This document shows, one piece after another, positions 31,094 through 63,778 of a stretch of 64,000 nt of DNA. The position numbers and the translations under genes are program-made. Every line of letters begins with the position of its first letter. The first letter of the stretch is position 1. The DNA is taken from sequence record OZ336096.1. The stretch is one strand, 5' to 3'. A model generated the notes under the pieces. It saw only the letters and a list, made by a program, of their open reading frames with translations. It made no database searches and was not told where the DNA came from. This DNA is from a phage.

Positions 31094-31099
31094 AAGTTT

Positions 31100-31125
31100 A
31101 TAGGGGCTTAAAAGCCCCATTTTGA
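31100..31125 (+). terminator. putative terminator/attenuator
   Basis: GGGGCTTAAAAGCCCC hairpin followed by ATTTT. Confidence 0.4.
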
Positions 31126-31138
31126 GAGAGATTAAAAG

Positions 31139-32419: not shown

Positions 32420-33283
32420 AAGAAGGCACAGTTGTTCCAATGCGTGTCCCAATGATTGTCTTCCAGAACACTGTTTCAGGCTTCCATTGGGTAGCAGGTT
32501 ATCTGGAAGACGCTTTCTCTGCTGAGATTTGGAAGGCTTGTACCATTGCAACTATTGCATTGCACTACAAACGTATCTGTAAGAAGTGGGCTGACCTTAC
32601 TTGTGACAACGACTTGCATTTACCTTATCAGTGCCATGACTTTGCTATGCGTGGTATGTCCGGCTTTACTGATGACGCATTTAACGCTGTAGGCCACTTA
32701 ACCAGCTTTAAAGGAACTGATAGCTTCCCTGCTGTATATACAGCTAAACGCATCTACGGGCAGTCTTACCCAATCTCTGATATTGGTGGTTCTGTACCAG
32801 CCACTGAACACTCTGTAATGTGTGCAAACATTGCTTGGGAAGGTGGTAATGAATTGATTGAAGAAGAAAGACGCTTCAAAGGTGAGTTGCAAACCTTCCG
32901 TCGCTTCTTAACAGAGACTTACCCAACTGGTATTGCAAGTGTTGTTTCAGACACTTATAACTTCTGGAGAACTGTGTCAGAAATCTTACCAGCACTCCGT
33001 AAAGAGATTATGGAACGTGATGGCAAACTGGTAATTCGTCCTGACTCTGGAGACCCTGTACATATTGTCACAGGTTATAAAGCAATCCACTTAGAGTGTG
33101 CTAAAAAGGCTTATTACGAGCACCTAAGCAAGCTAGAGGCAGGTGATACAATGCTGAGCACCGTCCTGAACATGAAGCTTGAAGATATTAACTATGTTAT
33201 GGCTGGGTGGTTACGTGCAGAAGGCTATGAAATGGTGGTTGACAGAGAAGACTTTGAAGTAGCCGATACAGTGTTGCTGAAAG
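31481..33283. repeat. perfect tandem direct duplication (2 x 883 bp) inside the NAMPT-like gene, joined by a 37 nt inverted segment
   Basis: 31481-32363 equals 32401-33283; junction 32364-32400 is the exact reverse complement of 32221-32257. Confidence 0.9.
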
Positions 33284-33840
33284 ATGCTTACATCAACGGC
33301 TCTGCAAACGTTGTAACACGTCCTGTAGCGGAGATTGATGGAGCTATCAAGACACTGTATAACATCTTTGGGGGAACTATTAACTCTAAAGGGTTTAAGG
33401 TACTGGATGAGCACATCGGCCTTATCTATGGTGACTCTATCACACTGGAACGTGCAAACGAAATCCTGAAGCGTCTGTATGAAATGGGTTTTGCAAGCTC
33501 TAACGTGGTGTTTGGTGTAGGTTCTTACACTTACCAGTACATGACTCGTGACACCTTTGCATTTGCTGTCAAAGCAACTCTTGCAAGCATTGGTGGTAAA
33601 GAGATTATGCTTGCAAAAGACCCTAAAACAGATAGTGGTGTTAAAAAATCTGCCTTTGGTGGTGTAGCACCTATGTGGGATGGTGATAAGCTGAAAGCTG
33701 TAGATGGCTATGGATTCCAGAGTTTTGCGGATGTACTTGACCACCCAGCTTGTGCTTTACGTTTAGTCTTTAGTGACTCTGAGCAGTTCGGTTACACAAC
33801 TCTTGGTGATATTCGAAATAATATTGACAAGCAGCTTTAA
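32368..33840 (+). CDS. nicotinamide phosphoribosyltransferase-like protein, 3' part
   Basis: 490 aa ORF starting in the junction; contains second repeat copy plus unique C-terminus. Confidence 0.65.
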   Translation: MFRTVLSIVSPVEVYAVEEGTVVPMRVPMIVFQNTVSGFHWVAGYLEDAFSAEIWKACTIATIALHYKRICKKWADLTCDNDLHLPYQCHDFAMRGMSGFTDDAFNAVGHLTSFKGTDSFPAVYTAKRIYGQSYPISDIGGSVPATEHSVMCANIAWEGGNELIEEERRFKGELQTFRRFLTETYPTGIASVVSDTYNFWRTVSEILPALRKEIMERDGKLVIRPDSGDPVHIVTGYKAIHLECAKKAYYEHLSKLEAGDTMLSTVLNMKLEDINYVMAGWLRAEGYEMVVDREDFEVADTVLLKDAYINGSANVVTRPVAEIDGAIKTLYNIFGGTINSKGFKVLDEHIGLIYGDSITLERANEILKRLYEMGFASSNVVFGVGSYTYQYMTRDTFAFAVKATLASIGGKEIMLAKDPKTDSGVKKSAFGGVAPMWDGDKLKAVDGYGFQSFADVLDHPACALRLVFSDSEQFGYTTLGDIRNNIDKQL

Positions 33841-33854
33841 AAGTATATGATAAG

Positions 33855-33878
33855 AGGCTCCTACGGGAGCCTTTTTAA
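33855..33878 (+). terminator. intrinsic terminator
   Basis: GGCTCCTACGGGAGCC hairpin followed by TTTTT. Confidence 0.55.
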
Positions 33879-33893
33879 TTTCTGGAGAAAACT

Positions 33894-34229
33894 ATGAAAA
33901 TCAAAGAGATGAACATCAACATTGTCTTAGAAGAACGTTGGGAGAACATTAAGAAACCTGAAGATGGTAAAAAGTTCCTTAACAAAATTTTAGTAGCAGC
34001 TAAAGAAGAACTGACTGGCAAGATTGCAGCAGCAATCACAATAAAAGTCTGTGTAAAAGGTCTTCCAGACAACCACCAATTTGCGCTTGACGAGTTTAAA
34101 GAAAGCTTCTACAATCCAAACAAACAGATGCTTGAAAGTAACTTTGCAGTATCTACAAGTATCGTCCATGACAGAAGCTTTATCCTTTACAAAAATATGA
34201 GAGGTGAGTCATGCAAGCATATTGGATAG
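33894..34229 (+). CDS. hypothetical protein
   Basis: 111 aa ORF. Confidence 0.45.
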   Translation: MKIKEMNINIVLEERWENIKKPEDGKKFLNKILVAAKEELTGKIAAAITIKVCVKGLPDNHQFALDEFKESFYNPNKQMLESNFAVSTSIVHDRSFILYKNMRGESCKHIG

Positions 34230-53849: not shown

Positions 53850-54314
53850 TTACTTTGGATATACACTGTCAAGATAAATGTCAGCTTCCATTCTACGTCT
53901 GTTTTTCAGGCCGTTTGAAGTGACCTTCTTACCTTTGACTGTAACCTTGTTCCACCATTGCATAGCATCTGCACAACCGACCTTATTACCATCGTTGTGG
54001 CGCTTGATAAATGTGGAATCCTGCATAGCTGTGATGCCAATGTTGTATGTTTCACTTACCAGTGCATCAAACTCATTCTGAGAAGTTGGAACCTTGACGG
54101 CTTTGTTCACTGCTGCAACGAACTTTTCAACATCTGCGAGAAGGTACTGTTCAGCTTGTTCAGCGGTAATCTTCATACCCATCTTAACAGGTTTACCAGC
54201 AATACGGATAGTCCCATACCCAATTGTGGGGATTCCAGCAGAATCTTCGTAAGCCTCCAGCTTAAGACCTTCAAAGAACTTAATAGCTTCTAAACCTTTT
54301 CTTGAGAGTTGCAT
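53850..54314 (-). CDS. lysozyme (GH24, T4-lysozyme-like)
   Basis: 154 aa; LEAIKFFEGLKLEAYEDSAGIPTIGYGT matches the T4-lysozyme catalytic region pattern. Confidence 0.8.
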   Translation of the reverse strand: MQLSRKGLEAIKFFEGLKLEAYEDSAGIPTIGYGTIRIAGKPVKMGMKITAEQAEQYLLADVEKFVAAVNKAVKVPTSQNEFDALVSETYNIGITAMQDSTFIKRHNDGNKVGCADAMQWWNKVTVKGKKVTSNGLKNRRRMEADIYLDSVYPK

Positions 54315-54946
54315 TATGCCTCCCCTGATGGGTTAACTGTAACTGTTGCTGCATTAGATGTTACAGAACCACCTGCACCAGTAACTACACAAGTGTAGCT
54401 TCCTGCATCTGCTTGTAGAGCACCAGACTTGCTATAGGTAGCATTTGTAGCTGAAGGGATGTCAGAGCCATCTTTCTTCCACTGATATCCAGTGGCATTG
54501 GTTGCAATAACGCTTAGGGTAAGTGTGCCACCTTCATTTACTGTTTGATTGGTTGGTTGCTGAGTGATTGATAGTGGCTTGATAGCATCCTTCAACTTAG
54601 CATTCAACATTGAGAATGGTTTAACTCTTGCCAGCCATTCACAATAAACTGTATCAACGTCTTTACCATTGATAATTGCATATTGTAAGTCCATGAAGAA
54701 GTCAGACGTTCTCATTTGAGCACCAACGCTGTAAAGCAACTCATCACTAAATGGAACTTTGTAGTCTGGTTTGTAGTCAAACTTCTTAACTTCTGCAATA
54801 TCAGCTTCAGGCCAATACGAACTATAGGTAAGTGGTAAAATAGCCTCTTGATATGTTCTAAAATCATATCTCTTACCAGCCTTTACGTTCGCAACGAAGC
54901 CCTTCACAAACTCTTTGAAGTCTGGGTAAGTCTTTGCTTTAATCAT
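54314..54946 (-). CDS. protein with C-terminal Ig-like domain
   Basis: 210 aa; C-terminus TLTLSVIATNATGYQWKKDG..AGSYTCVVTGAGGSVTSNAATVTV is Ig-like; N-terminal domain paralogous to next gene. Confidence 0.5.
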   Translation of the reverse strand: MIKAKTYPDFKEFVKGFVANVKAGKRYDFRTYQEAILPLTYSSYWPEADIAEVKKFDYKPDYKVPFSDELLYSVGAQMRTSDFFMDLQYAIINGKDVDTVYCEWLARVKPFSMLNAKLKDAIKPLSITQQPTNQTVNEGGTLTLSVIATNATGYQWKKDGSDIPSATNATYSKSGALQADAGSYTCVVTGAGGSVTSNAATVTVNPSGEA

Positions 54947-55314
54947 TTCTTTTTAGCCTCTAAATGTGCGTTTAGTCTAAAATAACCTTTGTGATGCGGA
55001 GATACATCACCAACAACAATACCTTTGACCTTATAGCCTTTACCAATTACATACTGGATATCCATAAGGAATCTTCCAAGTCCAACAATATGGAACATTG
55101 GATATAATAGACTCTCAGAATCTGGAATATTGATTTCAGGTTTGTAGGTACGCTGTTCGCTTGTTGGTGTAATATCTTCTTCAGGCCATTTGCTGAGTCT
55201 CCATGTCAAAGGTGTTGGGATAACATCATTAAGGTTGTACCTTTCACCATTTTGCACGGAATTGATATAGGATTGTAGGAAGCAATAAAAGTCTTTTGCA
55301 CTCTTAGCTTTCAT
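54943..55314 (-). CDS. hypothetical protein, paralog of N-terminal domain of 54314-54946
   Basis: 123 aa; MKAKSAKDFYCFLQSYINSVQNGERYNLNDVIPTPLTWRLSKWPEEDI parallels MIKAKTYPDFKEFVKGFVANVKAGKRYDF.. Confidence 0.45.
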   Translation of the reverse strand: MKAKSAKDFYCFLQSYINSVQNGERYNLNDVIPTPLTWRLSKWPEEDITPTSEQRTYKPEINIPDSESLLYPMFHIVGLGRFLMDIQYVIGKGYKVKGIVVGDVSPHHKGYFRLNAHLEAKKK

Positions 55315-55361
55315 TAAATATCCTTATAAATAGTTAAAGGGGCATCAGCCCCTATTCACAC

Positions 55362-55952
55362 TTAAGCTTTGGTCTTAAGTAGGTTCTTAAGTTTTTTAAG
55401 ATTCATACTCTCATCAAACTTAAAACCAAATCCATTGACATAATCAATGAACTCGGATTTCTTACTGAGTGACAATGCGTAACTCATATCAAAGTTCTTA
55501 CTTGTTTCTGCGTCTGGACTAGAGTTCACATCAAATGAAATTTCCGTAGGCTCTTGCTTACTTTTTCTCATATTATCAACCAACAAACATGTATAGTTTG
55601 CTGGATAGAAATTTACACTACCATCAACGTAGCTGTACTTATTATTATGGATAAGGTTGGAAAATACCTTAAGGAATGTTTCTGAGTCGTGGCAAACAAG
55701 TTTGAATTGGCTGCTCTCTCCAAGCGCAACTAATGAGTACGGACTTTCACTATCAAAGTCATAATTTGGATTTGATGTTGTAACCGTCACACGCATCAGG
55801 TTATTGGCAATAGTCTTCTGCTTGAAAGAATTTGGAACATAGTGAAGACCTCTATCGCACTGATTAACTAATTCTTTTAATAGGTCATTTGCATACGGTG
55901 AATTAATTGATACAGAGCCATCACTATTGTAATTAAAACTTACTGTTAACAT
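55362..55952 (-). CDS. hypothetical protein
   Basis: 196 aa ORF. Confidence 0.45.
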   Translation of the reverse strand: MLTVSFNYNSDGSVSINSPYANDLLKELVNQCDRGLHYVPNSFKQKTIANNLMRVTVTTSNPNYDFDSESPYSLVALGESSQFKLVCHDSETFLKVFSNLIHNNKYSYVDGSVNFYPANYTCLLVDNMRKSKQEPTEISFDVNSSPDAETSKNFDMSYALSLSKKSEFIDYVNGFGFKFDESMNLKKLKNLLKTKA

Positions 55953-56179
55953 TTTTCAGTTCTCCTGCGGTTTATAATTTTGCTGCAATAGAGAAACGAA
56001 GTAAACTCACTGGAAGAAACCATTAAGTGTTGTTCACTAGATTGAGCCATTGCCCTGAAATACATTCCAGTCAAAGCATCATAGTGACTATTCTTTCCAA
56101 TTGAGGTTATATAGCCATGACTCTTTGCAGTTTGATATAAATCTATAATATCTGCGATTTCTAATTGGGAACTACACAT
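55946..56179 (-). CDS. hypothetical protein
   Basis: 77 aa ORF. Confidence 0.35.
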   Translation of the reverse strand: MCSSQLEIADIIDLYQTAKSHGYITSIGKNSHYDALTGMYFRAMAQSSEQHLMVSSSEFTSFLYCSKIINRRRTEKC

Positions 56180-56343
56180 AGATAATCCTCTTGTCTTCTG
56201 TAATTTTGAAAGAACAGGTACAGACCAATTTCAGAGGATGAATAGTAGATTAATTCTACCCTTTTTGATTCCTTACAGTGATTGGTATTCTTACCTTTCT
56301 TCGGTTTATTTGATTTTCTCATTAAGTCTCCTTTGTAGAACAA
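56161..56343 (-). CDS. hypothetical basic protein
   Basis: 60 aa ORF, first gene of the minus-strand block. Confidence 0.3.
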   Translation of the reverse strand: MFYKGDLMRKSNKPKKGKNTNHCKESKRVELIYYSSSEIGLYLFFQNYRRQEDYLCVVPN

Positions 56344-56571
56344 GGCAGACCTACAGCTTTAAGTAAGATGGTACAGTAATCCATACAACAAGTCAAGAAC
56401 TATTGCAAGTTAAAAAAGTTGTTGACAAAGTACTTGACAAGGTATAGACTTATAAATACTTAGAAGATAACTTAAAAGGTTCCTCTAAAAAGGCTATTTA
56501 AACAGATATCTTTCTGGATATCTATCTTTTATCTTAAAAGCCTTTTAAGAGGTCTTATAAGAGGCATACCA

Positions 56572-56943
56572 ATGAAAAACAGAACAAACAAAGGCCAGTT
56601 TAAAAAAGGCCAGTCTGGGAACCCATCTGGAAGACCAAAAGGCTCTCGTAACAAAAGCTCACTCGTAAAAGCTCAACTGACCATTGATAATTCTGCTGAG
56701 TTTGCTGCAAAGTTGTTTGAGGCGATTGTTACAAGGGACGCTGCTAAGCTTGCAGAGTTCGGTTTGACGACTGACGATGTAAACCTGAAGTCGATGATGG
56801 AAGCTGGTAAAACTATCATGACCCACTCAGCAGGTGAGATGAAAGCGATTGCAGCAGACACTAAGAAGACCCCTGATAATGGTGGTCAGTCTCAGACAGA
56901 TAACAAACCAACGTTCTCTGCTGTAGCGACTCTCAAAAAATAA
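56572..56943 (+). CDS. hypothetical protein
   Basis: 123 aa; N-terminal basic motif FKKGQSGNPSGRPKGSRN. Confidence 0.45.
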   Translation: MKNRTNKGQFKKGQSGNPSGRPKGSRNKSSLVKAQLTIDNSAEFAAKLFEAIVTRDAAKLAEFGLTTDDVNLKSMMEAGKTIMTHSAGEMKAIAADTKKTPDNGGQSQTDNKPTFSAVATLKK

Positions 56944-57024
56944 TTTTAAAAGGTGTTGACAGACTCTACAAAGTTGCTCTAAAGTCTGTCACATCAAACA
57001 ACAAATGAGAGAAGAGAGTAAAAT

Positions 57025-58440
57025 ATGAGCGAATTATTTAAACATGCGCACCTTCATGCAGGTCGAACTGAAAATGGTGCTGTAAACCATACTTCATCAA
57101 TGTCTGCTCTTGTAGACTTTTACAAAGCTGCTGGTTCAAGCCGTAGCAACGTAGAAATCTTACCAGACCTGTTCTACAAAGCTTTGCGTGAAGATGTTGA
57201 TGTTGCAGTTCGTATTTTGCTTCACATGCGAGATGTACGAGAAGGTATGGGTGAGCGTAAAGCCTTCAGAACTGTTTTACTTCAAGCAATCGAAGATAAA
57301 GTTTTAGAGCCTACACAGGTTCTTCGTATTATGGATAAGATTGCAGAACTCGGTCGTTTTGATGACTTCAAAATCTTCGTGGGTACTCGTTTCGAGACAG
57401 ATGCCTTCAAGCATTTAGAAGCAGCATTACTAGACCCTGCAACAGCAGGTTTGGCAGCTAAGTGGTTACCACGAGTCAAACCACGTCATAAGCAGTTTGT
57501 AAAACGTTTCTGTAAGTTTGCCAACTTGAGTGAGAAAGAGTACCGCACACTGTTGTCTGCACTATCTGATACAGTTGAGCAAAAAATCTCTGCTAATGAT
57601 TTTGGTAAGATTGACTACAGCAAGATTCCTTCACTTGCTGCTGCACGTTACCAGAAGCTGTTTAACCGCAAGGATGGAGAACGCTACAAAGCTTACATTG
57701 AGTCCTTATCAAAGGGTGAGACTAAGATTAATGCTGGTGCTGTTTACCCATACGATGTGATTAAATCTGTTAAGCATGGTAATGCAGATGTTGCTAATGA
57801 GCAGTGGAAAGCACTACCAAACTGGATGGCAGAGGGTGAAAACATCTTGTGTATGACTGATGTTTCAGGCTCAATGTCTTGGGTGAATCTTGGTTCAATC
57901 ACCGCCCTTGATATTGGTGTATCACTTGCCTTGTATGTAGCAGAACGTAATACAGGTTGCTTTAAGGATGAGTTAATGGTTTATTCAACAAACCCTTACT
58001 TCATCGAACTGAGTGGTGATTTACGAAACCGTCATCGTCAGGTGATGCGACATGTTGAATATGGCTCAACTAACTTACAAGCAGCTTTTGACCGCATTCT
58101 TGAGACAGGTAAAAGAAATAACTTGACTCAGAAAGATATGCCAAGTAAGCTTATCATCTTCTCCGATATGGAGTTCAATCAGGTTGATGGAGCTAACGGT
58201 CGTACAAACTTTGAAGCAATTCAGAGTAAGTACAAAAAAGCTGGATATGAGATGCCACAACTGGTATTCTGGTACTTAGCAAACCGTAATGGTACTTGCG
58301 AAGTGTCTGTTAAGGATAACGGTGTAGCAATGGTATCTGGTTTCTCTCCAGCCACTTTAAAAGCTCTGCTTGGTGGTGAGAAGTTTGACCCAATCAGCGT
58401 AATGCTCAAAGCAGTAATGATTGACCGTTATATCTGGTAA
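57025..58440 (+). CDS. von Willebrand factor A domain protein with N-terminal helical domain (possibly Ro60/TROVE-like)
   Basis: 471 aa; MIDAS-like DVSGSM in ILCMTDVSGSMSW and downstream vWA-like pattern; helical N-terminal ~270 aa. Confidence 0.5.
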   Translation: MSELFKHAHLHAGRTENGAVNHTSSMSALVDFYKAAGSSRSNVEILPDLFYKALREDVDVAVRILLHMRDVREGMGERKAFRTVLLQAIEDKVLEPTQVLRIMDKIAELGRFDDFKIFVGTRFETDAFKHLEAALLDPATAGLAAKWLPRVKPRHKQFVKRFCKFANLSEKEYRTLLSALSDTVEQKISANDFGKIDYSKIPSLAAARYQKLFNRKDGERYKAYIESLSKGETKINAGAVYPYDVIKSVKHGNADVANEQWKALPNWMAEGENILCMTDVSGSMSWVNLGSITALDIGVSLALYVAERNTGCFKDELMVYSTNPYFIELSGDLRNRHRQVMRHVEYGSTNLQAAFDRILETGKRNNLTQKDMPSKLIIFSDMEFNQVDGANGRTNFEAIQSKYKKAGYEMPQLVFWYLANRNGTCEVSVKDNGVAMVSGFSPATLKALLGGEKFDPISVMLKAVMIDRYIW

Positions 58441-58458
58441 AAAGTTTTAAAAAGGGTA

Positions 58459-58487
58459 TTGACAATGTGTTTGATACCCTTTAATAT
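58459..58487 (+). promoter_or_regulatory. sigma70-like promoter upstream of tRNA cluster
   Basis: TTGACA - 17 nt - TAATAT; weaker second candidate at 58550-58578. Confidence 0.45.
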
Positions 58488-58605
58488 GTTCTACATAGAA
58501 ACGAAACGAGAGCTTTTCTAAGATACTGAAAAATATTTTAAAAAAGTTCTTGACAATCACTAAAAAATAATGTTAAAGTGGTTACATAGAGTTTGAAAAG
58601 TTTAT

Positions 58606-58682
58606 CTCTGTTTAGCTCAGCTTGGTAGAGCGTTCCGTTTGGGGCGGTAAGGCCGGAGGTTCAAGTCCTCCAACAGAGACCA
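58606..58682 (+). tRNA. tRNA-Pro (anticodon UGG)
   Basis: 7 bp acceptor CTCTGTT/AACAGAG, D-arm TAGCTCAGCTTGGTAGAGC, T-loop GGTTCAAGTCC, CCA encoded; hand-folded. Confidence 0.6.
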
Positions 58683-58689
58683 AATTAAT

Positions 58690-58767
58690 GTTCCAGTAGA
58701 CAAAACGGTAAAGTCACCACTCTTTCAAAGTGGATATTTGAGGGTTCAAATCCCTTCTGGAACGCCA
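58690..58767 (+). tRNA. tRNA-Glu (UUC)
   Basis: Acceptor GTTCCAG/CTGGAAC, anticodon loop CTTTCAA, T-loop GGTTCAAATCC. Confidence 0.7.
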
Positions 58768-58858
58768 GTTTTGACAGAAGACCAATTGCAGCAAACTTAA
58801 TCTTATTCATCTGACACGAAATCGGACAAAGAAGAGATTTGGTCTGGTCATTAAGAAT

Positions 58859-58935
58859 TGCGGGTATAGAGAAAGGGCGTCTCACATGTCTCATTAGCAT
58901 GGTATCGGCAGGTTCGACTCCTGCACCCGCCTCCA
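58859..58935 (+). tRNA. tRNA-Met (CAU)
   Basis: Anticodon stem CATGT/GCATG, loop CTCATTA, T-loop GGTTCGACTCC; 1-72 mismatch. Confidence 0.55.
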
Positions 58936-59012
58936 ATTTTGCAGAAGACCGTATTCAGCAACAAAATACTTTTTGCGGATAAAAGAAAAAACACGGTCTG
59001 GCAATGTATTAA

Positions 59013-59089
59013 GGTTAGGAAGCACATAAGGTATGTGCGGTCGCCTGTTAAGCGAATGGCACAGGGTTCGAATCCCTGACTAACCGCCA
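59013..59089 (+). tRNA. tRNA-Asn (GUU)
   Basis: Acceptor GGTTAGG, loop CTGTTAA, T-loop GGTTCGAATCC. Confidence 0.65.
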
Positions 59090-59098
59090 AATTTAAAT

Positions 59099-59186
59099 GT
59101 GTCGTTATCCCGTAGATGGTAGCGGTGGGGACTGTAAATCCCTTGTCATTGAGACTCGGTAGGTTCGACTCCTACACGGCACACCA
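59099..59186 (+). tRNA. tRNA-Tyr (GUA), long variable arm
   Basis: Acceptor GTGTCGT/ACGGCAC, loop CTGTAAA, long variable arm, T-loop GGTTCGACTCC. Confidence 0.65.
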
Positions 59187-59192
59187 AATAAA

Positions 59193-59270
59193 GGTTATGT
59201 AGTTTAATCTGGTTAAAATACTCCCCTGTCACGGGAGATGATGAGGGTTCAAATCCCTTCGTAACCGCCA
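59193..59270 (+). tRNA. tRNA-Asp (GUC)
   Basis: Acceptor GGTTATG/CGTAACC, AC stem CTCCC/GGGAG, loop CTGTCAC. Confidence 0.7.
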
Positions 59271-59493
59271 AATTATAATAAGTATTTCAAGATGATGTTT
59301 TGAGAGGGCTATTTAGCCCCTCCCTTAAAGAGTTCTTACGAGTATTCTTTAAAGGAGCAGAAGACCAAATTCAGCAAGTACGTATGATATTTTCAAGCCA
59401 ATTTAATTTTGAAAAATTTAAAACTTGGTCTGGCTCAACAGATTTACAGAAGACCGTTTACAGCAAAACTTAAACAATCTATTTCTCCGGTAA

Positions 59494-59556
59494 AGAAAAG
59501 GCGAAGGTTCGATTCCTTCACTCGGCAGATGTCGAGTTGGTGTAATGGTAGCACTT
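59494..59556 (+). pseudogene. tRNA-like halves in permuted order (3' half then 5' half)
   Basis: GGCGAAGGTTCGATTCCTTCACTCGGCAG (T-arm + 3' acceptor) immediately followed by GTCGAGTTGGTGTAATGGTAGCAC (5' acceptor + D-arm); the two acceptor strands are complementary to each other. Confidence 0.35.
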
Positions 59557-59727
59557 AAGATGATAAACAACGGTCTGGTAATTATCTTTGTAGATAAGTT
59601 ATTAAGCTTACCTGTGAGTATGCGACCACAAAGGGTGAAAGGGTAAATTCTAGATTTAAACCCAACAAGGCACATCGCTACAGACCTTAAGCAAGTCTGG
59701 GTAGCTTATCTACAAAGATAATTTAAT

Positions 59728-59803
59728 GGAAGTGTAGCAGAATGGTGATGCGGCAGACTTTTAATCTGACAGGCGATGGGTTCGAATCCCTCCACTTCTA
59801 CCA
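59728..59803 (+). tRNA. tRNA-Lys (UUU)
   Basis: Acceptor GGAAGTG/CACTTCT, loop CTTTTAA, T-loop GGTTCGAATCC. Confidence 0.6.
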
Positions 59804-59807
59804 ATAT

Positions 59808-59884
59808 GGTTCAGTCGCAGATAAGGTAATGCAGGGGTCTCATAAGCCCTATGAATGTGGGTTCGATTCCCATCTGAACCTCCA
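59808..59884 (+). tRNA. tRNA with CAU anticodon (Met or lysidine-Ile)
   Basis: Acceptor GGTTCAG/CTGAACC, loop CTCATAA, T-loop GGTTCGATTCC. Confidence 0.6.
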
Positions 59885-59885
59885 A

Positions 59886-59961
59886 GCTGGTATAGTTAAG
59901 AAGGTTATAACACTCCCCTGATAAGGGAACATCGGTGGTTCGATTCCACCTACCAGTACCA
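59886..59961 (+). tRNA. tRNA-Ile (GAU)
   Basis: Acceptor GCTGGTA/TACCAGT, loop CTGATAA, T-loop GGTTCGATTCC. Confidence 0.65.
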
Positions 59962-60298
59962 ATTTCAATAAAGTTGTTGACATTGAGATGTGACCACTTT
60001 TTAGTAACTAAAATACTTCATAATATGTATAATTCAAACACCAATACATGAGCGTTAGACGTAACACAATGTGGGGAAATTTGTTGTACATATTCTGAAT
60101 AGTTTTCGTTGCGTAGCGTCTATTTTGCAAATTTAAAATAAATGCAAACGACAATGTTTTTCTGGCAGTAGCTTGATAGGCTAAACACCAGTGAGGTCTT
60201 CCAATCCCTCATCAAAGAATTTGGCGTACTAGCCCACGGTATGATTAATAAAGTGGGCATCTTTAAGGGCTTTCTAAGAGAGTCTTTAAAGATAATTA

Positions 60299-60380
60299 CG
60301 GGGCGTATCTCAGCTGTCTTCTAAACAGCCGTTAACCGAGTAAGTGGAGTATGCGGGTTCGAGTCCTGCCGCCTCGACCA
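60299..60380 (+). tRNA. atypical tRNA-like gene, possibly tRNA-Arg (UCU)
   Basis: Acceptor CGGGGCG/CGCCTCG + ACCA, T-loop GGTTCGAGTCC, perfect anticodon hairpin GCTGT-CTTCTAA-ACAGC, but no recognisable D-arm and a long segment after the anticodon arm. Confidence 0.35.
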
Positions 60381-60523
60381 ATTTAGTTAGCAGATTACTT
60401 AGACGACCTAAGCGGGTCTTCCTGTAGGGAGGTGGTCTGTATCTCATGTTTTCCAGAACATGTAAATAATCTGAGAAGAAGCTTGACAGTGTTGAGATAA
60501 TACGGTAAGCTTCGAATTATAGT

Positions 60524-60606
60524 ATGGGACGATGTTAAGACTCTAAGGCATGAGCAACGGCTTCCAACACCGTTTCAAAGGGGTTCAACTCCTCCGTCCC
60601 ATGCCA
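60524..60606 (+). tRNA. atypical tRNA-like gene, possibly tRNA-Trp (CCA)
   Basis: Acceptor ATGGGAC/GTCCCAT + GCCA, T-loop GGTTCAACTCC; anticodon region AACGG-CTTCCAACA-CCGTT allows a 7 nt loop (CCA) or a 9 nt loop; extra nucleotides in the D region. Confidence 0.4.
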
Positions 60607-60619
60607 AAGTCTTATTAGG

Positions 60620-60709
60620 GGTAGGTAGCGGCTAATGGTAGCCAAACTGTCTTGAAAACAGTTGCCACTGTAGAGATACGGTGAGGGTTCGACTCCTTTA
60701 CTTACCGCC
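60620..60709 (+). tRNA. tRNA-Ser (UGA), long variable arm
   Basis: AC stem ACTGT/ACAGT, loop CTTGAAA, long variable arm, T-loop GGTTCGACTCC; 3' end GCC (CCA not fully encoded). Confidence 0.65.
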
Positions 60710-60862
60710 TAATAAGATTTAAAGCCAAGCTTCATTCGGATGTTGCTTTGGTATCCCTCGTGTTGTCGAACACACTAATAAAGCACCTAGTAGGTGTCAC
60801 GGAGAAGAGATAATATCAAGCTCTCCAAAGGTCCTAGTCACCGGATTAAACAAGACTATGCA

Positions 60863-60884
60863 AAGACCTTTTTAGGTCTTTTTA
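60863..60884 (+). terminator. intrinsic terminator
   Basis: AAGACCTTTTTAGGTCTT hairpin followed by TTT. Confidence 0.5.
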
Positions 60885-60962
60885 GAGGGCTTCTAAGGTT
60901 ATTGCAGCTTGTTGTGGAACCTTGTTGCTTAGGTTCTTAGAAGTTCTCTAAAAAGATTTAAT

Positions 60963-61040
60963 GGGAGATTGACGGTAATTGGTAAACCTACCATCCTTAG
61001 AAGTTGGTGTTTGAGGGTTCGAATCCCTTGTCTCCTACCA
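60963..61040 (+). tRNA. tRNA with UAG anticodon (Leu-type), short variable arm
   Basis: Acceptor GGGAGAT/GTCTCCT, loop CTTAGAA, T-loop GGTTCGAATCC, discriminator A. Confidence 0.5.
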
Positions 61041-61047
61041 AATTAAT

Positions 61048-61123
61048 GCAGGTGTAGCAAAATGGTTATGCGGCTGACTCTTAATCAGTAAGACGATGGG
61101 TTCAATTCCCTCCACCTGTACCA
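61048..61123 (+). tRNA. tRNA-Lys (CUU)
   Basis: Acceptor GCAGGTG/CACCTGT, loop CTCTTAA, T-loop GGTTCAATTCC. Confidence 0.6.
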
Positions 61124-61129
61124 AACATT

Positions 61130-61205
61130 GGGGATGTAGTTTACATGGTTAAAACATAAGTTTTGCAAACTTAAGTACAGGGTTCAATTCCCTGCTTCTC
61201 CACCA
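61130..61205 (+). tRNA. tRNA-Ala (UGC)
   Basis: AC stem TAAGT/ACTTA, loop TTTGCAA, T-loop GGTTCAATTCC. Confidence 0.65.
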
Positions 61206-61211
61206 ATTAGT

Positions 61212-61286
61212 GCATCCATAGTTTAAACGGGAAAATTACAGTCTTCCAAACTGAGGTTGAGGGTTCGATTCCCTCTGGATGCTCCA
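61212..61286 (+). tRNA. tRNA-Gly (UCC)
   Basis: Perfect acceptor GCATCCA/TGGATGC, loop CTTCCAA, T-loop GGTTCGATTCC. Confidence 0.7.
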
Positions 61287-61293
61287 AATTAAT

Positions 61294-61370
61294 GCTGCTT
61301 TCGTATAATTGGCTATTACACATCCCTTGTAAGGATGGAAATGCAGGTTCGAGTCCTGTGAGCAGCACCA
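61294..61370 (+). tRNA. tRNA-Thr (UGU)
   Basis: Acceptor GCTGCTT/GAGCAGC, AC stem CATCC/GGATG, loop CTTGTAA, T-loop GGTTCGAGTCC. Confidence 0.75.
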
Positions 61371-61465
61371 ATTCAGAGGTCAAGTGAAAGACCGCTGGTG
61401 TCAACTGAAGACCGTAACAAATTCCACGGAGTTGAGTTAGCGGCACAACTTCAGACCTCTTCCAT

Positions 61466-61540
61466 ACTCGCTTAGTTTATATGGTAAAACATCACCCTTA
61501 CAAGATGAAGAAAAAGGTTCAAGTCCTTTAGTGAGTACCA
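61466..61540 (+). tRNA. tRNA-Val (UAC)
   Basis: Acceptor ACTCGCT/AGTGAGT, loop CTTACAA, T-loop GGTTCAAGTCC. Confidence 0.65.
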
Positions 61541-61541
61541 T

Positions 61542-61619
61542 GTTCCAGTATCCCAATTGGCAGAGGATGCAAGCTCAAACCTTGTACTAGTGACGGTTCG
61601 AATCCGTCTTGGAACACCA
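61542..61619 (+). tRNA. tRNA with CAA anticodon (Leu-type), short variable arm
   Basis: Acceptor GTTCCAG/TTGGAAC, AC stem GCAAG/CTTGT, loop CTCAAAC, T-loop GGTTCGAATCC, discriminator A. Confidence 0.5.
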
Positions 61620-61638
61620 ATTTTAAGAGGCTATTTAG

Positions 61639-62196
61639 ATGAGATATTTGAAGTATGCTTCATGGATTTTCCTAGCTTTACTAGAACCATTTGCAGCAAC
61701 CCTAGCAGTCATCTTAGCACCTTTCGTAGTTCCATTCTACAGTGAGAAGAAAGGACATCTACCTTTTGGATTCAGATGGATGGAGACCTATGACAACCCG
61801 ATTGATGGTGATGAAGGCCACGTTAAAAGATGGGCTAAGGTTAGAAAGATTGGTAAGCTGGGTGTCTACATGCAGAGAGTTGGATGGCTCTGGAGAAACA
61901 AAGCTTATAACTTCTCTTACCATGTATTAGGAAGAGATGTAAAAGATGTTACTAAGTGGAAAGGTAATATCAACGTAAGTTCTGACCCTGAAGATAATCA
62001 GACTGGTTATCTCCTAATGTGGAACAGTAATGCTTGGGGATTATTCGCTTTTATCCCATCAATTAAAGTCTTTGGTAAACAGTTTTACTGGAGAATTTAT
62101 ATTGGATGGAAACTAAAAAGTGTTGTCCCAGAAGAAAGAGCATTCTCAAGGGGAAGAGTTATGTTGGCATTCTTTATTCATCCACTGAGAAAGTAA
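61639..62196 (+). CDS. hypothetical membrane-anchored protein embedded in the tRNA cluster
   Basis: 185 aa ORF with AAGAGG RBS; N-terminal hydrophobic helix. Confidence 0.5.
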   Translation: MRYLKYASWIFLALLEPFAATLAVILAPFVVPFYSEKKGHLPFGFRWMETYDNPIDGDEGHVKRWAKVRKIGKLGVYMQRVGWLWRNKAYNFSYHVLGRDVKDVTKWKGNINVSSDPEDNQTGYLLMWNSNAWGLFAFIPSIKVFGKQFYWRIYIGWKLKSVVPEERAFSRGRVMLAFFIHPLRK

Positions 62197-62204
62197 AGAT
62201 TTAA

Positions 62205-62280
62205 AGGGGATTAGTTTACAAGGTTAAAACCTCGGTCTTTGAAATCGAAGAAGTTGGTTCAATTCCAACATCCCCCGCCA
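62205..62280 (+). tRNA. tRNA-Gln (UUG)
   Basis: D-stem GTTT/AAAC, AC stem TCGGT/ATCGA, loop CTTTGAA, T-loop GGTTCAATTCC. Confidence 0.6.
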
Positions 62281-62282
62281 AT

Positions 62283-62361
62283 GCTCCATTACTCCAATTG
62301 GCAGAGAGGCCAGACTTAAAATCTGTGTTATGTATCGGTTCGAATCCGATATGGAGTACCA
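62283..62361 (+). tRNA. tRNA with UAA anticodon (Leu-type), short variable arm
   Basis: Acceptor GCTCCAT/ATGGAGT, loop CTTAAAA, T-loop GGTTCGAATCC, discriminator A. Confidence 0.5.
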
Positions 62362-62366
62362 AATTT

Positions 62367-62442
62367 AGCGGTATAGCATAACTGGCAATGCAGCAGTCTC
62401 TGAAGCTGTCCTATTAAGGTTCAAATCCTTATGCCGCTGCCA
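62367..62442 (+). tRNA. tRNA-Gln (CUG)
   Basis: Acceptor AGCGGTA/TGCCGCT, loop CTCTGAA, T-loop GGTTCAAATCC. Confidence 0.6.
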
Positions 62443-62473
62443 CTTCTAAGGTTTCTTACGAGAGTCCTTAAAT

Positions 62474-62549
62474 GTGGCCTTATCATAAATGGTAATGACC
62501 CATGCTGTGAACATGGTCTATACGGGTTCAAATCCCGTAGGTCACCCCA
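62474..62549 (+). tRNA. tRNA-His (GUG)
   Basis: D-stem TCAT/ATGA, AC stem CCATG/CATGG, loop CTGTGAA, T-loop GGTTCAAATCC. Confidence 0.75.
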
Positions 62550-62555
62550 ATTTAT

Positions 62556-62631
62556 AGTCCAAGTGGCTTATATGGTTAAAGCGCGTGTCTGAAAAACATG
62601 AGAAGAGGGTTCAAATCCCACTGGACTACCA
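62556..62631 (+). tRNA. tRNA-Phe (GAA)
   Basis: Acceptor TAGTCCA/TGGACTA, loop CTGAAAA, T-loop GGTTCAAATCC. Confidence 0.6.
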
Positions 62632-62647
62632 ATTTCAAAGGTGCTTA

Positions 62648-63382
62648 ATGAAAGAGATGACAGAACAAGGTAAGGAGATTTTTAATCTCTTAAAAACCGG
62701 TAAAGGGTTTTCTAATCCCCTTATTACTGGTGCAGCAGTTCTAGGTGGAACCGTGGCTGCCTCTACATCACTTGTAAGCTCTATTAGCTCTGTAACAGAC
62801 CCTACAATGAAGGATAAACTTGTTGCTGCTGGACTTACAACAGTCCTTCTAAACAGCTTTACAACAAGCCTGACAAGCACTACAGCAACTACTAAGACCC
62901 TAACAGACTATGGTCAAAAATCTATTGATGAGTTTTCATCACGTATGCAGGTAGCAAAGGGATACTCCAATGTTATGGGTGCAGCAGGAGAACAAGTTGG
63001 TTGTACACCATTCAGTGGTATTATGGGTGTTGCTACAGAGTATGGTCAAAAAGCTATTGACATGATGAACAGTACACTAGATAGTGTTAATGGTGTGTTA
63101 AGTGACTTACAGGACGCTATTGACAAGGGTCTTGATACTGTTTCTGATTTAGCTAACCAAGCTGTCAGTAAGATTAATGAAGGTATCTCAAAGATTACAG
63201 CTTATGCAGATGAAGTTGTGCAGATGATTGAAGAAGAGGCTGCCCTTATTGCAGAGTACCTTAAAACGAATATCAATGGGTTCTTAGCAGGTATCTTACC
63301 AGACTGGTTTGATGATGCTTGTAAAACTGGTGTAATTGACACTATTGCAACACCAGAAATGAAGAACGCATTACAGAAATAA
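62648..63382 (+). CDS. hypothetical Ser/Thr-rich protein embedded in the tRNA cluster
   Basis: ORF 62585-63382 trimmed to ATG 62648 so it no longer overlaps tRNA-Phe; hydrophobic segment ITGAAVLGGTVAAS; stop abuts tRNA-Ser. Confidence 0.45.
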   Translation: MKEMTEQGKEIFNLLKTGKGFSNPLITGAAVLGGTVAASTSLVSSISSVTDPTMKDKLVAAGLTTVLLNSFTTSLTSTTATTKTLTDYGQKSIDEFSSRMQVAKGYSNVMGAAGEQVGCTPFSGIMGVATEYGQKAIDMMNSTLDSVNGVLSDLQDAIDKGLDTVSDLANQAVSKINEGISKITAYADEVVQMIEEEAALIAEYLKTNINGFLAGILPDWFDDACKTGVIDTIATPEMKNALQK

Positions 63383-63383
63383 T

Positions 63384-63476
63384 GGAAGATTAACCCTAAA
63401 AGGTAAGGGAGCAGTTTGCTAAACTGCCAGTAGCTGAGAAATCGGTGTACCAGTTCAAGTCTGGTATCTTCCTCCA
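63384..63476 (+). tRNA. tRNA-Ser (GCU), long variable arm
   Basis: Perfect acceptor GGAAGAT/ATCTTCC, AC stem GCAGT/ACTGC, loop TTGCTAA, long variable arm, T-loop AGTTCAAGTCT. Confidence 0.8.
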
Positions 63477-63480
63477 ATTT

Positions 63481-63555
63481 GAATCCGTGACAGAAATGGA
63501 TATGTGCCTGTCTGCAAAACAGGTTTATAAGGGTTCGAGTCCCTTCGGATTCTCC
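63481..63555 (+). tRNA. tRNA-Cys (GCA)
   Basis: Perfect acceptor GAATCCG/CGGATTC, AC stem CCTGT/ACAGG, loop CTGCAAA, T-loop GGTTCGAGTCC. Confidence 0.8.
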
Positions 63556-63593
63556 AAGTTATTTTACTCTCTCTCAATTAAAATAATAATAAT

Positions 63594-63654
63594 GCCCTGC
63601 TATAAGTATTCTTCCTTTCGCTACCGAAGAGTATTTTTAGACAGGGCTTTTTTA
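63594..63654 (+). terminator. intrinsic terminator at end of tRNA cluster
   Basis: Long hairpin GCCCTG...CAGGGC followed by TTTTTT; second terminator GACGGTCTCTGTGCCGTC + TTTTTT at 63720-63743. Confidence 0.55.
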
Positions 63655-63778
63655 CAGAGTTATACTTTATAGGAAGACTTATACAGTATGTCTCTGACGT
63701 ACATTGTGGTTTCTCCTTGACGGTCTCTGTGCCGTCTTTTTTAAGGGGAAACAATATTAATTATTTGGAGAAAACATA

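What the first reader, a model, noticed from the sequence alone, without database searches (positions are those of the whole stretch)
57025..58440. vWA-domain protein, possibly Ro60/TROVE-like, directly upstream of the tRNA cluster
The 471 aa protein has a helical N-terminal ~270 aa and a C-terminal vWA domain with a MIDAS-like DVSGSM motif. This is the architecture of Ro60/Rsr-type RNA-binding proteins, which partner with small structured RNAs that are often tRNA-like and encoded nearby. Its placement just before a cluster containing tRNA-like oddities makes an RNA quality-control or RNA-chaperone role plausible.
Basis: inference. Interest (0 to 1): 0.5.

Follow-up and report, generated by a model that had tools for sequence, protein, structure and literature searches.

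The report
Phage Ro60-like protein with partner RNAs
This Felix O1-type phage gene encodes a ring-shaped Ro60-like protein already known to defeat a bacterial defence, and next to it I found two unannotated small RNAs, one tRNA-like, that belong to an undescribed RNA family accompanying this protein family across very different phages and that resemble the enigmatic Class I RNAs of social amoebae.

Summary

New here are two unannotated RNAs in the tRNA cluster that share a module (stem, UUACAGCAA-type motif, stem, CUGG tail). The short one is 58946-59005. The long one, 59451-59584, encloses a permuted tRNA-like domain (T-arm, closed hairpin, D-arm), as in bacterial YrlA Y RNAs.

The same modules flank DUF2828 genes, on the same strand, in phages of Proteobacteria, Firmicutes, Actinobacteria and Campylobacter, and in 21 of 75 metagenomic loci. 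Their stems covary. Genuine TROVE-associated Y RNAs carry a different motif. The short module matches the Rfam Dictyostelium Class I RNA model below threshold but specifically.

Protein-RNA binding is inferred, not shown, and gp130 alone sufficed against Ppl.

The parts
57025..58440 (+). Gene for a 471-aa Ro60-like ring protein (Pfam DUF2828 + DUF7788; PHROG 850); orthologue of Bas63 gp130
57025..57819 (+). N-terminal all-helical (HEAT-like) half, residues 1 to about 265, with invariant or near-invariant basic residues (R40, R69, R72, R78, R111, K146, R150, R208, K234)
   Evidence: DSSP on the model; conservation; superposes on the Ro60 horseshoe; no significant sequence match to TROVE on its own (E 0.35)
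57832..58437 (+). C-terminal vWA domain; MIDAS DxSxS (nt 57859-57876) plus T349 and D381
   Evidence: Pfam DUF7788 E 2e-43; MIDAS residues invariant; hhalign to the Ro60 vWA 93%, E 3e-7
56956..56985 (+). Promoter-like site (TTGACA, 18 nt, TAAAGT) 40 nt upstream of the gene
   Evidence: Consensus scan; the total count in the region is not above shuffles, so this is only plausible
56572..56943 (+). Conserved upstream neighbour ORF (123 aa, DUF5681)
   Evidence: ORF; Pfam; same position in Bas63 and Yersinia phage P778
58946..59005 (+). Short module RNA (about 60 nt, Class I-like): stem AGACCGU (58946-52) / ACGGUCU (58993-99), motif UCAGCAA (58955-61), tail GGCAAU; lies in the 77-nt gap between tRNA-Met and tRNA-Asn
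   Evidence: Sequence and fold; best Rfam family for the gap is Dicty_Class_I_RNA, full length, 6 of 6 stem pairs, 24 bits, E 0.005; orthologues in Bas63 and HP1; syntenic copy in Yersinia P778 with two compensatory pairs
59451..59584 (+). Long module RNA (134 nt, YrlA-like): closing stem 59451-58/59569-76, motif ACAGCAA 59460-66, small hairpin 59482-98, T-arm 59503-19, closed acceptor-like hairpin 59520-37, D-arm 59540-54, tail GGUAAU 59577-82
   Evidence: Unconstrained MFE fold; top hit in the whole window for a model trained on non-Felixounavirus elements, 42.8 bits; covariation, 3 of 7 hairpin pairs changed on both sides, 95.8% paired against about 46% when slid; family signature reproduced by 1.5e-5 of shuffled flanks; present in 253 phage records
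58459..58579 (+). Two promoter-like sites (TTGACA -35 boxes) between the gene and the tRNA/RNA cluster
   Evidence: Consensus scan; 'promoter (x2)' is annotated here in phage ASO1A
58606..63556 (+). Cluster of 24 tRNA genes that hosts both module RNAs
   Evidence: ARAGORN; Rfam

Best explanation
The ORF encodes a ring-shaped Ro60-like protein: a HEAT-like helical horseshoe closed by a MIDAS-bearing vWA domain. It belongs to the DUF2828/DUF7788 family and is the orthologue of Bas63 gp130, which counters the E. coli Ppl defence. I propose that it is the protein half of a phage ribonucleoprotein whose RNA halves are encoded in the adjacent tRNA cluster. These are a roughly 60-nt RNA (58946-59005) and a 134-nt RNA (59451-59584), which share a docking module: a terminal 7-8 bp stem, (U)UACAGCAA immediately after the 5' strand, and a CUGG-type 3' tail. 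In the long RNA the module encloses a circularly permuted tRNA-like domain, as in bacterial YrlA Y RNAs.

By analogy with Ro60-Y RNA particles, the protein would bind the module. The tRNA-like domain would then engage tRNA-recognising factors, either recruiting or blocking host exoribonucleases such as PNPase, or acting as a decoy for tRNA-directed nucleases. The outcome would be RNA protection or quality control during infection, and counter-defence.

Shown here or in the literature: the fold, the orthology to gp130, the anti-Ppl phenotype of gp130 (published), and the existence, conservation, covariation and gene-proximal enrichment of the RNA modules. Inferred: that the RNAs are expressed as discrete species, that the protein binds them, and everything downstream of binding.

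For: RNA partners: curated Rfam YrlA hits lie beside DUF2828 genes in Enterococcus phage EA1 (47.8 bits, E 1e-7) and Mycobacterium phage Nicholas (37.9 bits), equal to or better than the hits beside genuine TROVE genes. The window's long element is the top hit for an independently trained model and covaries.

Family signature: WCAGCAA with at most one mismatch in 14 of 19 elements against 14.7% of background windows, in 0 of 7 TROVE-context elements, with an abutting helix of mean 8.0 bp whose inner pairs differ between elements. G.U pairs occur in 9 of 17 helices.

Position: 9 of 13 long forms within 800 nt of the gene (P 2e-5 against a uniform null; 1e-5 to 8e-5 against a tRNA-like distribution). 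Short forms: 23 of 28 on the gene's strand and 17 of 23 within 800 nt (P 5e-10). 21 of 75 metagenomic loci and 8 of 10 annotated distant phages have a module by descriptor. Controls are clean: about 150 kb of non-DUF2828 sequence and the T5 tRNA region.
Against: There is no direct evidence of expression or of protein-RNA binding. gp130 alone, from a plasmid or inserted into T7, restored plaquing on the Ppl strain, so the phage RNAs are not required for that phenotype. The Rfam YrlA model does not hit the window at E<=1. The closing stem is short, and by energy it is no better than shuffled flanks (z -0.66; DUF2828-context mean -0.51, against -1.75 for TROVE-context elements). tRNA-tRNA junctions can score as high as the candidate with my core model. 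My descriptors were designed after seeing the data, so their P values are indicative only. The N-terminal half shows no significant sequence similarity to TROVE. 54 of 75 metagenomic loci show no module with the strict descriptors.
Confidence: 0.6

Rival explanations
1. The protein works on its own as a protein-protein inhibitor. Its vWA/MIDAS face binds and blocks Ppl or another host factor, the Ro60-like ring is only a scaffold, and the neighbouring RNAs are irrelevant to it.
For: gp130 alone, from a plasmid or inside T7 (which has no tRNA cluster), counters Ppl and even improves plaquing without the defence. The MIDAS residues, classically a protein-ligand site, are invariant.
Against: It does not explain why a conserved RNA module with covarying stems sits beside this gene, on its strand, in phages of four bacterial phyla. 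It also does not explain the many invariant Arg/Lys residues in the helical half. Host RNAs could substitute in the T7 experiment.
Confidence: 0.25
2. The stem-ACAGCAA modules are cis-acting elements rather than stable trans-acting RNAs. They could be processing or stability signals in tRNA-cluster transcripts, or operators through which the protein autoregulates its own mRNA.
For: In Vibrio phage XZ1 a module spans the gene's RBS and start codon. In Aeromonas phage 4_4572 at least five modules fill the 5' leader, and the last tail overlaps the Shine-Dalgarno sequence. In the window both copies lie inside a polycistronic tRNA cluster.
Against: Many copies lie downstream of the gene or 0.5-1 kb away. 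The long forms carry a complete tRNA-like domain, like the stable YrlA RNAs. The short forms match the architecture of the abundant, stable Dictyostelium Class I RNAs. The two roles are not mutually exclusive.
Confidence: 0.2
3. The long element is debris of tRNA genes, the 3' half of one decayed tRNA fused to the 5' half of the next, and has no function or link to the protein.
For: tRNA-tRNA junctions score 38-43 bits with the same model. In Citrobacter phage HP1 the hairpin loop reads G-CCA-AACA, like a tRNA 3' end plus spacer. Every locus with a long form also has tRNA genes.
Against: Neither arm belongs to a callable tRNA. The 'acceptor' strands pair with each other and covary. The T arm, D arm and closing stem are invariant while the neighbouring sequence diverges. 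The flanks carry the family motif and helix (P about 1e-5). The elements sit closer to the DUF2828 gene than tRNAs do. There is none in the T5 cluster.
Confidence: 0.07
4. The protein is a generic vWA-domain protein, and the Ro60 resemblance is an artefact of matching the vWA domain alone.
For: There is no TROVE Pfam match. HMM searches against PDB sequences find no Ro60. The sequence-level signal is confined to the C-terminal half.
Confidence: 0.02

Closest known systems
Bas63 (Escherichia phage JohannRWettstein) gp130, anti-Ppl counter-defence protein (PhageMaP preprint, PMC11482910)
   Same: Orthologue: 98% identical, same length, same position between a DUF5681 ORF and tRNA-Pro. It was described as structurally similar to Ro60, with the speculation that some neighbouring 'tRNAs' are Y RNAs.
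   Different: That work named no RNA. The two module RNAs found here are unannotated in Bas63, and the long one lies under the tiny minus-strand ORF bas63_0137. Its anti-Ppl assay did not need them.
Ro60/Rsr with Y RNAs (bacterial YrlA and YrlB; RYPER complex with PNPase)
   Same: Ring fold of a HEAT horseshoe plus a MIDAS vWA domain. RNA genes lie adjacent to the protein gene. One RNA has a permuted tRNA-like domain (T-arm, closed hairpin, D-arm) and a shorter companion RNA lacks it (Chen et al. 2014).
   Different: The Pfam families differ (PF11443+PF25043 against PF05731+PF25045). The protein is about 65 aa shorter. The RNA stem is short (7-9 bp) and carries WCAGCAA instead of the UCGGUUAYC seen in TROVE-context phage YrlAs. 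The window RNA is not detected by the Rfam YrlA model.
Thermus phage phiLo phiRo60 with Yrl1/Yrl2 (PMC12135203; PDB 9kop, 9l5y)
   Different: Only 16% identical. The DUF2828 profile does not find it by sequence. Its Yrls were defined by a CGAA motif, not by the ACAGCAA module.
Dictyostelium Class I RNAs (Rfam RF01414; Kjellin et al. 2021, PMC7919456)
   Same: About 60 nt; a short terminal stem maintained by compensatory changes; AAG start; an 11-nt motif (C)CUUACAGCAA directly after the 5' strand; CUG(U) end; genes often in tandem clusters. The Rfam model hits seven phage short modules and nothing else in about 190 kb.
   Different: All phage hits are below the gathering score (23-30 against 41.5 bits). 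Class I RNAs are reported as unique to Dictyostelia, have a eukaryotic promoter element (DUSE), and their only named partner is the RRM protein Rnp1A. Whether Dictyostelium has a DUF2828 protein could not be tested here.

Membership tests
Ro60 / TROVE family (Pfam PF05731 + PF25045) | TROVE-domain sequence signature in the N-terminal HEAT region | tested here: not met
   No PF05731 match at E<=1. N-terminal profile against the TROVE profile gives E 0.35. No Ro60 hit by phmmer or hmmsearch against PDB sequences.
Ro60 / TROVE family (Pfam PF05731 + PF25045) | Ring architecture: helical horseshoe closed by a vWA domain | tested here: met
Ro60 / TROVE family (Pfam PF05731 + PF25045) | vWA domain with a MIDAS motif, homologous to the Ro60 vWA | tested here: met
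   D279, S281, S283, T349 and D381 are invariant. hhalign to a Ro60 alignment: 93%, E 3e-7, over residues 215-447.
Ro60 / TROVE family (Pfam PF05731 + PF25045) | Binds Y RNA on the outer surface and misfolded RNA ends in the central cavity | not testable with these tools
   Needs EMSA, RIP or a structure. Only conserved basic residues can be noted.
DUF2828/DUF7788 phage family (PHROG 850) and Bas63 gp130 orthologues | Full-length match to the family profiles, and orthology with synteny to gp130 | tested here: met
   PHROG 850 E 6e-184 over 1-471; PF11443 E 2e-29; PF25043 E 2e-43. 460/471 identical to bas63_0130, same neighbours.
DUF2828/DUF7788 phage family (PHROG 850) and Bas63 gp130 orthologues | Counters the Ppl defence system | not testable with these tools
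   Shown for the 98% identical orthologue only.
YrlA-type bacterial Y RNA (Rfam RF02553), for 59451-59584 | Permuted tRNA-like domain: T-arm, closed acceptor-like hairpin, D-arm | tested here: met
   Sequence and MFE fold. Independent model 42.8 bits, top of the window. Hairpin covaries.
YrlA-type bacterial Y RNA (Rfam RF02553), for 59451-59584 | Reaches the Rfam score for the family | tested here: not met
   No YrlA hit at E<=1 in 54000-64000. Relatives in EA1, Nicholas and L098 score 29-48 bits against a gathering score of 69. Genuine TROVE-context phage YrlAs also score only about 36 bits.
YrlA-type bacterial Y RNA (Rfam RF02553), for 59451-59584 | Long stem formed by the 5' and 3' ends that carries the Ro-binding site | tested here: inconclusive
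   An 8-bp closing helix exists and its counterpart covaries across the family. By energy it is no better than shuffled flanks (z -0.66), and its flanking motif differs from the TROVE-context one.
YrlA-type bacterial Y RNA (Rfam RF02553), for 59451-59584 | Encoded next to the Ro60-type gene | tested here: met
   1.0 kb downstream on the same strand. Family-wide enrichment near the gene.
Dictyostelium Class I RNA (Rfam RF01414), for 58946-59005 | About 60 nt, 6-bp terminal stem, AAG start, 11-nt CCUUACAGCAA-type motif after the 5' strand, CUGU end | tested here: met
   Full-length alignment to the consensus with 6 of 6 pairs, AUU-CAGCAA (one deletion), gAAGACC start and UCUGG end. Features as defined in PMC7919456.
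Dictyostelium Class I RNA (Rfam RF01414), for 58946-59005 | Reaches the Rfam gathering score; DUSE promoter; dictyostelid host | tested here: not met
   24.0 bits against 41.5. This is a phage of enterobacteria. I therefore call it 'Class I-like' and do not file it as a member.

The most novel reading that the evidence does not exclude
The stem-UUACAGCAA RNAs and the DUF2828-type Ro60-like protein form an ancient RNP that spans phages and eukaryotes. On this reading, Dictyostelium Class I RNAs, thought unique to social amoebae and without a known mechanism, are the 'Y RNAs' of a DUF2828-type protein, and the phage system is its tractable counterpart. The alternative is that the phage and amoeba RNAs converged on one protein-binding module.
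Probability: 0.3. Interest if true: 0.9.

Novelty: new variant of a known kind. Interest (0 to 1): 0.72.

Why it matters
The protein is not new in itself, because its Bas63 orthologue is a published anti-Ppl factor described as Ro60-like. What is new is a concrete, testable RNA side.

- Two specific unannotated RNAs in a model phage family (Felix O1, Bas63).
- A conserved docking module that defines an RNA family travelling with DUF2828 proteins across phages of at least four bacterial phyla.

If the protein binds these RNAs, the Ro60-Y RNA paradigm extends to a second, much larger phage protein family: 710 phage records, against 358 for genuine TROVE. That would give a handle on how a Ro60-like particle defeats a bacterial defence, and would explain some of the 'odd tRNAs' and blank gaps in phage tRNA clusters.

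The resemblance to Dictyostelium Class I RNAs could make a twenty-year-old question, what those abundant RNAs bind and do, directly testable.

Tried and rejected
1. Direct sequence searches of the protein and its profile against PDB found no Ro60. Homology needed fold search and profile-profile comparison.
2. NCBIfam gave nothing useful.
3. Rfam at gathering threshold found no Y RNA in the window. It also missed Y RNAs beside genuine phage Ro60 genes, so I repeated the scans at a permissive threshold with positive controls.
4. A generic test of flank duplex energy for a closing stem was not significant for DUF2828-context elements. I replaced it with cross-element covariation and swapped-partner controls.
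5. The covariance model of the tRNA-like core cannot by itself separate true elements from tRNA-tRNA junctions, so I added ARAGORN filtering.
6. A full-length family alignment by MAFFT had register slips. I did not build a second model and used simulation instead.
7. Yersinia phage P778 has no clear long-form counterpart, only a T-arm and hairpin with no D-arm.
8. I looked for PhageMaP data on Bas63 genes 137 and 138, which overlie the long RNA. There is none in the text and no supplement is held.
9. Avesson et al. 2011 (Class I RNA-binding proteins) is not held, and the AlphaFold-DB fold library was unavailable. I therefore could not test whether Dictyostelium or other eukaryotes encode the protein.
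10. The oversized 'tRNAs' of Cronobacter phage S13 are tRNA-like genes with an insert of about 45 nt, not Y RNAs.
Full report
**Observation.** The ORF at 57025-58440 (+) exists exactly as described and encodes 471 aa. A high-confidence AlphaFold2 model (pLDDT 90.2, pTM 0.89) is all-helical to about residue 263, followed by an alpha/beta domain. DVSGSM is residues 279-284 (nt 57859-57876). Together with T349 and D381 it forms a complete MIDAS motif that is invariant in 74 homologues. Twenty-four tRNA genes follow, the first 165 nt after the stop codon.

**Identity of the genome and prior art.** The window is a Felixounavirus (Felix O1-like); 253 phage records carry this stretch. The protein is 460/471 identical to bas63_0130 of Escherichia phage JohannRWettstein (Bas63), with the same neighbours: a DUF5681 ORF upstream and tRNA-Pro/tRNA-Glu downstream.

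The PhageMaP preprint (PMC11482910) reports three things about Bas63 gp130. [quoted passage not shown] It lies upstream of tRNAs, some of which 'are possibly Y RNAs'. And it counters the Ppl defence, shown by deletion, complementation and transfer into T7.

Databases already label the family 'RNA-binding protein' (PHROG 850, E 6e-184) or 'Ro-like RNA binding protein' (mycobacteriophage records).

**What the protein is.** Pfam assigns DUF2828 (PF11443) plus DUF7788 (PF25043), not TROVE. Genuine Ro60 proteins carry PF05731 plus PF25045 (the seed sequence was verified against PDB 9nen_A). Plain sequence or HMM searches against PDB find no Ro60. The fold evidence is unambiguous:

- Foldseek's top 12 PDB hits are all full-length Ro60/TROVE structures (Thermus phage phiLo, Xenopus, human, Deinococcus), with E 3e-9 to 3e-7 and TM up to 0.67. 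Isolated vWA domains follow only at E >= 1e-3.
- Profile-profile comparison supports homology over the last helices plus the vWA domain. It was 77% with the first profile and rose to 93% (E 3e-7) with a deeper one.
- The N-terminal half alone is not significant (E 0.35), although the best local alignment pairs ELGRWDDL with Ro60's RNGWSHKDLL.

I conclude that this is a remote, compact relative of Ro60 forming its own family. It works like a Ro60 in architecture, but it is not a TROVE-family member by sequence.

**Distribution.** The family is large: more than 3,146 proteins and 710 phage records from hosts including Escherichia, Salmonella, Vibrio, Aeromonas, Campylobacter, Listeria, Staphylococcus, Enterococcus, Bacillus and Mycobacterium. 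Genuine TROVE Ro60 occurs in 358 phage records, mostly actinobacteriophages. In distant phages the DUF2828 gene again lies beside tRNA genes, and sometimes beside RNA-repair genes (an RtcB-type ligase in Listeria, Rnl2 in Aeromonas) or a phage tmRNA.

**Looking for the RNA partner, with controls.** Rfam finds no Y RNA in the window. As a control I scanned loci around genuine phage TROVE genes. At gathering threshold nothing appeared. At a permissive threshold, YrlA hits of about 36 bits lay 200-500 nt upstream of the gene in 3 of 4 loci.

The same permissive scan of distant DUF2828 loci gave full-length YrlA hits right beside the gene. In Enterococcus phage EA1 they score 47.8 and 35.8 bits, the closer one 235 nt upstream. 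In Mycobacterium phage Nicholas the hit scores 37.9 bits and lies 129 nt downstream. These RNAs show the YrlA hallmark, a permuted tRNA-like domain of T-arm, closed hairpin and D-arm.

**The long RNA in the window.** Two T-arms in the window belong to no called tRNA. Around the first, the sequence reads T-arm GAAGG-UUCGAUU-CCUUC, closed hairpin ACUCGGC-AGAU-GUCGAGU, D-arm GUGU-AAUGGUA-GCAC. The whole is enclosed by AGACCGUU/AACGGUCU (59451-59576). The unconstrained MFE fold reproduces this.

- The element is present in all 253 related records and mostly unannotated; a few annotators called it 'tRNA-OTHER'.
- In six sequences from Felixounavirus, Mooglevirus and Suspvirus the hairpin is always paired, with 3 of 7 pairs changed on both sides. 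The whole structure is 95.8% paired, against about 46% when partners are slid.
- A covariance model trained only on 12 non-Felixounavirus elements places its best hit in the 64-kb window exactly here (42.8 bits; next best 29.3).
- Caveat: tRNA-tRNA junctions elsewhere reach 38-43 bits with this model, so context matters and the score alone does not decide. A simple descriptor occurs by chance 0.06 times per window.

**Family-level association.** In 75 diverse viral-contig loci (39-48% protein identity), after removing anything overlapping a called tRNA, 13 standalone elements of at least 30 bits remain in 11 loci. All are on the gene's strand. Six lie within 220 nt of the gene and nine within 800 nt. 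This is far from uniform (P 1.7e-5). The elements are also closer to the gene than tRNAs are (P 1e-5 to 3e-4).

**A shared module.** The DUF2828-context elements share a motif and a helix.

- A motif WCAGCAA sits 22-44 nt upstream of the T-arm. It is exact (ACAGCAA) in 7 of 19 elements and within one mismatch in 14 of 19, against 1.5% and 14.7% of background windows.
- The seven TROVE-context elements lack the motif, and most carry UCGGUUAYC instead.
- Immediately 5' of the motif lies one strand of a 6-10 bp helix (mean 8.0). Its partner lies after the D-arm and is followed by a CUG(G/U/A)UAA-type tail.
- The outer pairs are conserved (RGA.../...UCY), while the inner pairs differ freely between elements and stay complementary. 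G.U pairs occur in 9 of 17 helices.
- The elements are 119-141 nt long.
- Given the core, shuffled flanks of the window element reproduce the motif, helix and tail in 3 of 200,000 trials.
- A flank-signature-plus-T-arm descriptor has no false positives in about 150 kb of control sequence, and adds a member in Cronobacter phage S13.
- A generic duplex-energy test did not support the closing stem. The evidence for the stem is covariation, not stability.

**The short RNA.** The 77-nt gap between tRNA-Met and tRNA-Asn holds a paralogue of the module without the tRNA-like interior: gAAG-ACCGU-AU-UCAGCAA, then about 31 nt, then ACGGUCU-GGCAAU (58946-59005). Short forms abound next to DUF2828 genes:

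| Phage | Short forms |
|---|---|
| Staphylococcus | three in tandem, starting 20 nt after the stop codon |
| Campylobacter | two, just upstream |
| Nicholas | one, followed by the long form |
| Listeria, Bacillus, Enterococcus | one each, in the upstream gap |
| Yersinia P778 | one in the syntenic slot, with two compensatory pairs |
| Aeromonas 4_4572 | at least five in the leader |
| Vibrio XZ1 | one spanning the RBS and start codon |

In the metagenomic loci, 23 of 28 descriptor hits are on the gene's strand (P 5e-4) and 17 of 23 of those lie within 800 nt (P 5e-10). Counting long and short forms together, 21 of 75 loci have a module within 800 nt. The T5 tRNA region, which has no DUF2828 homologue, has none. 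These descriptors were designed after seeing the data, so the P values are indicative. The curated Rfam models provide independent confirmation.

**Resemblance to Dictyostelium Class I RNAs.** The only Rfam family that touches the short modules is Dicty_Class_I_RNA. Its consensus is GaUcuC-CUUACAGCAA-...-GagAuC-UG. The window element aligns to it full-length with all six stem pairs (24 bits, E 0.005 for the gap). Six further hits (23-30 bits) fall exactly on predicted modules in Aeromonas, Listeria and two metagenomic phages, with none elsewhere. All are below the gathering score of 41.5.

Kjellin et al. 2021 define Class I RNAs as follows:

- about 60 nt long;
- a 6-bp terminal stem kept by compensatory changes;
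- an AAG start and a CUGU end;
- an 11-nt motif next to the 5' strand;
- often clustered in the genome;
- reported as unique to Dictyostelia.

The phage modules match each structural feature. Whether this reflects homology or convergence is open. I could not check whether dictyostelids encode a DUF2828 protein.

**Mechanism.** Three things are shown: the fold, the orthology to an anti-Ppl protein, and conserved, covarying, gene-proximal RNA modules. The rest is inferred. I propose that the protein docks on the stem-ACAGCAA module. The long RNA's tRNA-like domain would then engage tRNA-recognising factors or host exoribonucleases, as in Ro60/Y RNA/PNPase particles and in Thermus phage phiRo60. 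Modules that overlap the gene's own RBS in some phages could allow autoregulation. Against an obligatory RNA role, gp130 alone sufficed against Ppl in T7.

**Verdict.** The finding as given is correct and already known. The follow-up adds a new, testable RNA component and a possible cross-kingdom link.

Noticed in passing
window 60299-60381 (+): A D-arm-less tRNA-Arg(UCU)-like gene: 7-bp acceptor stem, anticodon loop CUUCUAA, long variable region, good T-arm, ACCA end. It occupies the slot where Bas63 has a canonical tRNA-Arg(UCU). ARAGORN does not call it, and Rfam gives only 23 bits. It could be a variant that evades an anticodon nuclease, or a pseudogene.
   Followed up: partly
window 6945-7177 (-) and 23604-23954 (+): Two group I introns above the Rfam gathering score (64.5 and 52.7 bits). 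One probably corresponds to the split nrdD seen in Bas63.
   Followed up: no
L012 6895-7015 and 7025-7137 (Cronobacter phage S13); L011 2494-2610 (Aeromonas phage 4_4572): Oversized tRNA-like genes (113-121 nt) with a shared hairpin insert of about 45 nt in place of, or inside, the anticodon arm, ending in CCA. In S13 they lie just downstream of the DUF2828 gene. They are not Y RNAs, and their function is unknown.
   Followed up: partly
L018 3428-3979 and 941-1039 (Listeria phage LMTA-57); L017 1213-1563 (Enterococcus phage EA1): A ROOL RNA (88.5 bits, just under the gathering score) and a drum RNA in the tRNA region upstream of the Listeria DUF2828 gene. A phage-encoded tmRNA (145 bits, tag AKNEELLAVA) upstream of the Enterococcus one.
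   Followed up: no
L010 about 4965-5008 (Vibrio phage XZ1); L011 4598-4970 (Aeromonas phage 4_4572): Stem-ACAGCAA modules that overlap the RBS and start codon of the DUF2828 gene (Vibrio), or fill its 5' leader as an array of at least five (Aeromonas). This hints at translational autoregulation.
   Followed up: partly
L048 5827-5875 and L036 1565-1614: Weak variants 126 and 38 nt upstream of DUF2828 genes in which the T-arm is followed directly by a D-arm (AGUGUAACGGUAGCAC, like the window's GGUGUAAUGGUAGCAC), with no intervening hairpin.
   Followed up: no
window 61639-62196 and 62585-63382 (+): Two protein genes embedded in the tRNA cluster (DUF7338, E 7e-61; DUF7217, E 3e-87), conserved in Bas63. 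Their function is unknown.
   Followed up: no
L103 (phage T5 record 30284-33949 and 40848-41566): T5's tRNA cluster is annotated with eight 'stable RNAs with unknown functions', some tRNA-like. They do not carry the ACAGCAA module, but they show that orphan small RNAs in phage tRNA clusters are a wider, unexplained phenomenon.
   Followed up: partly
window 59371 and 62882 (+): Two further exact WCAGCAA occurrences in the tRNA-cluster region, without an abutting helix by my descriptor. They were not examined further.
   Followed up: no
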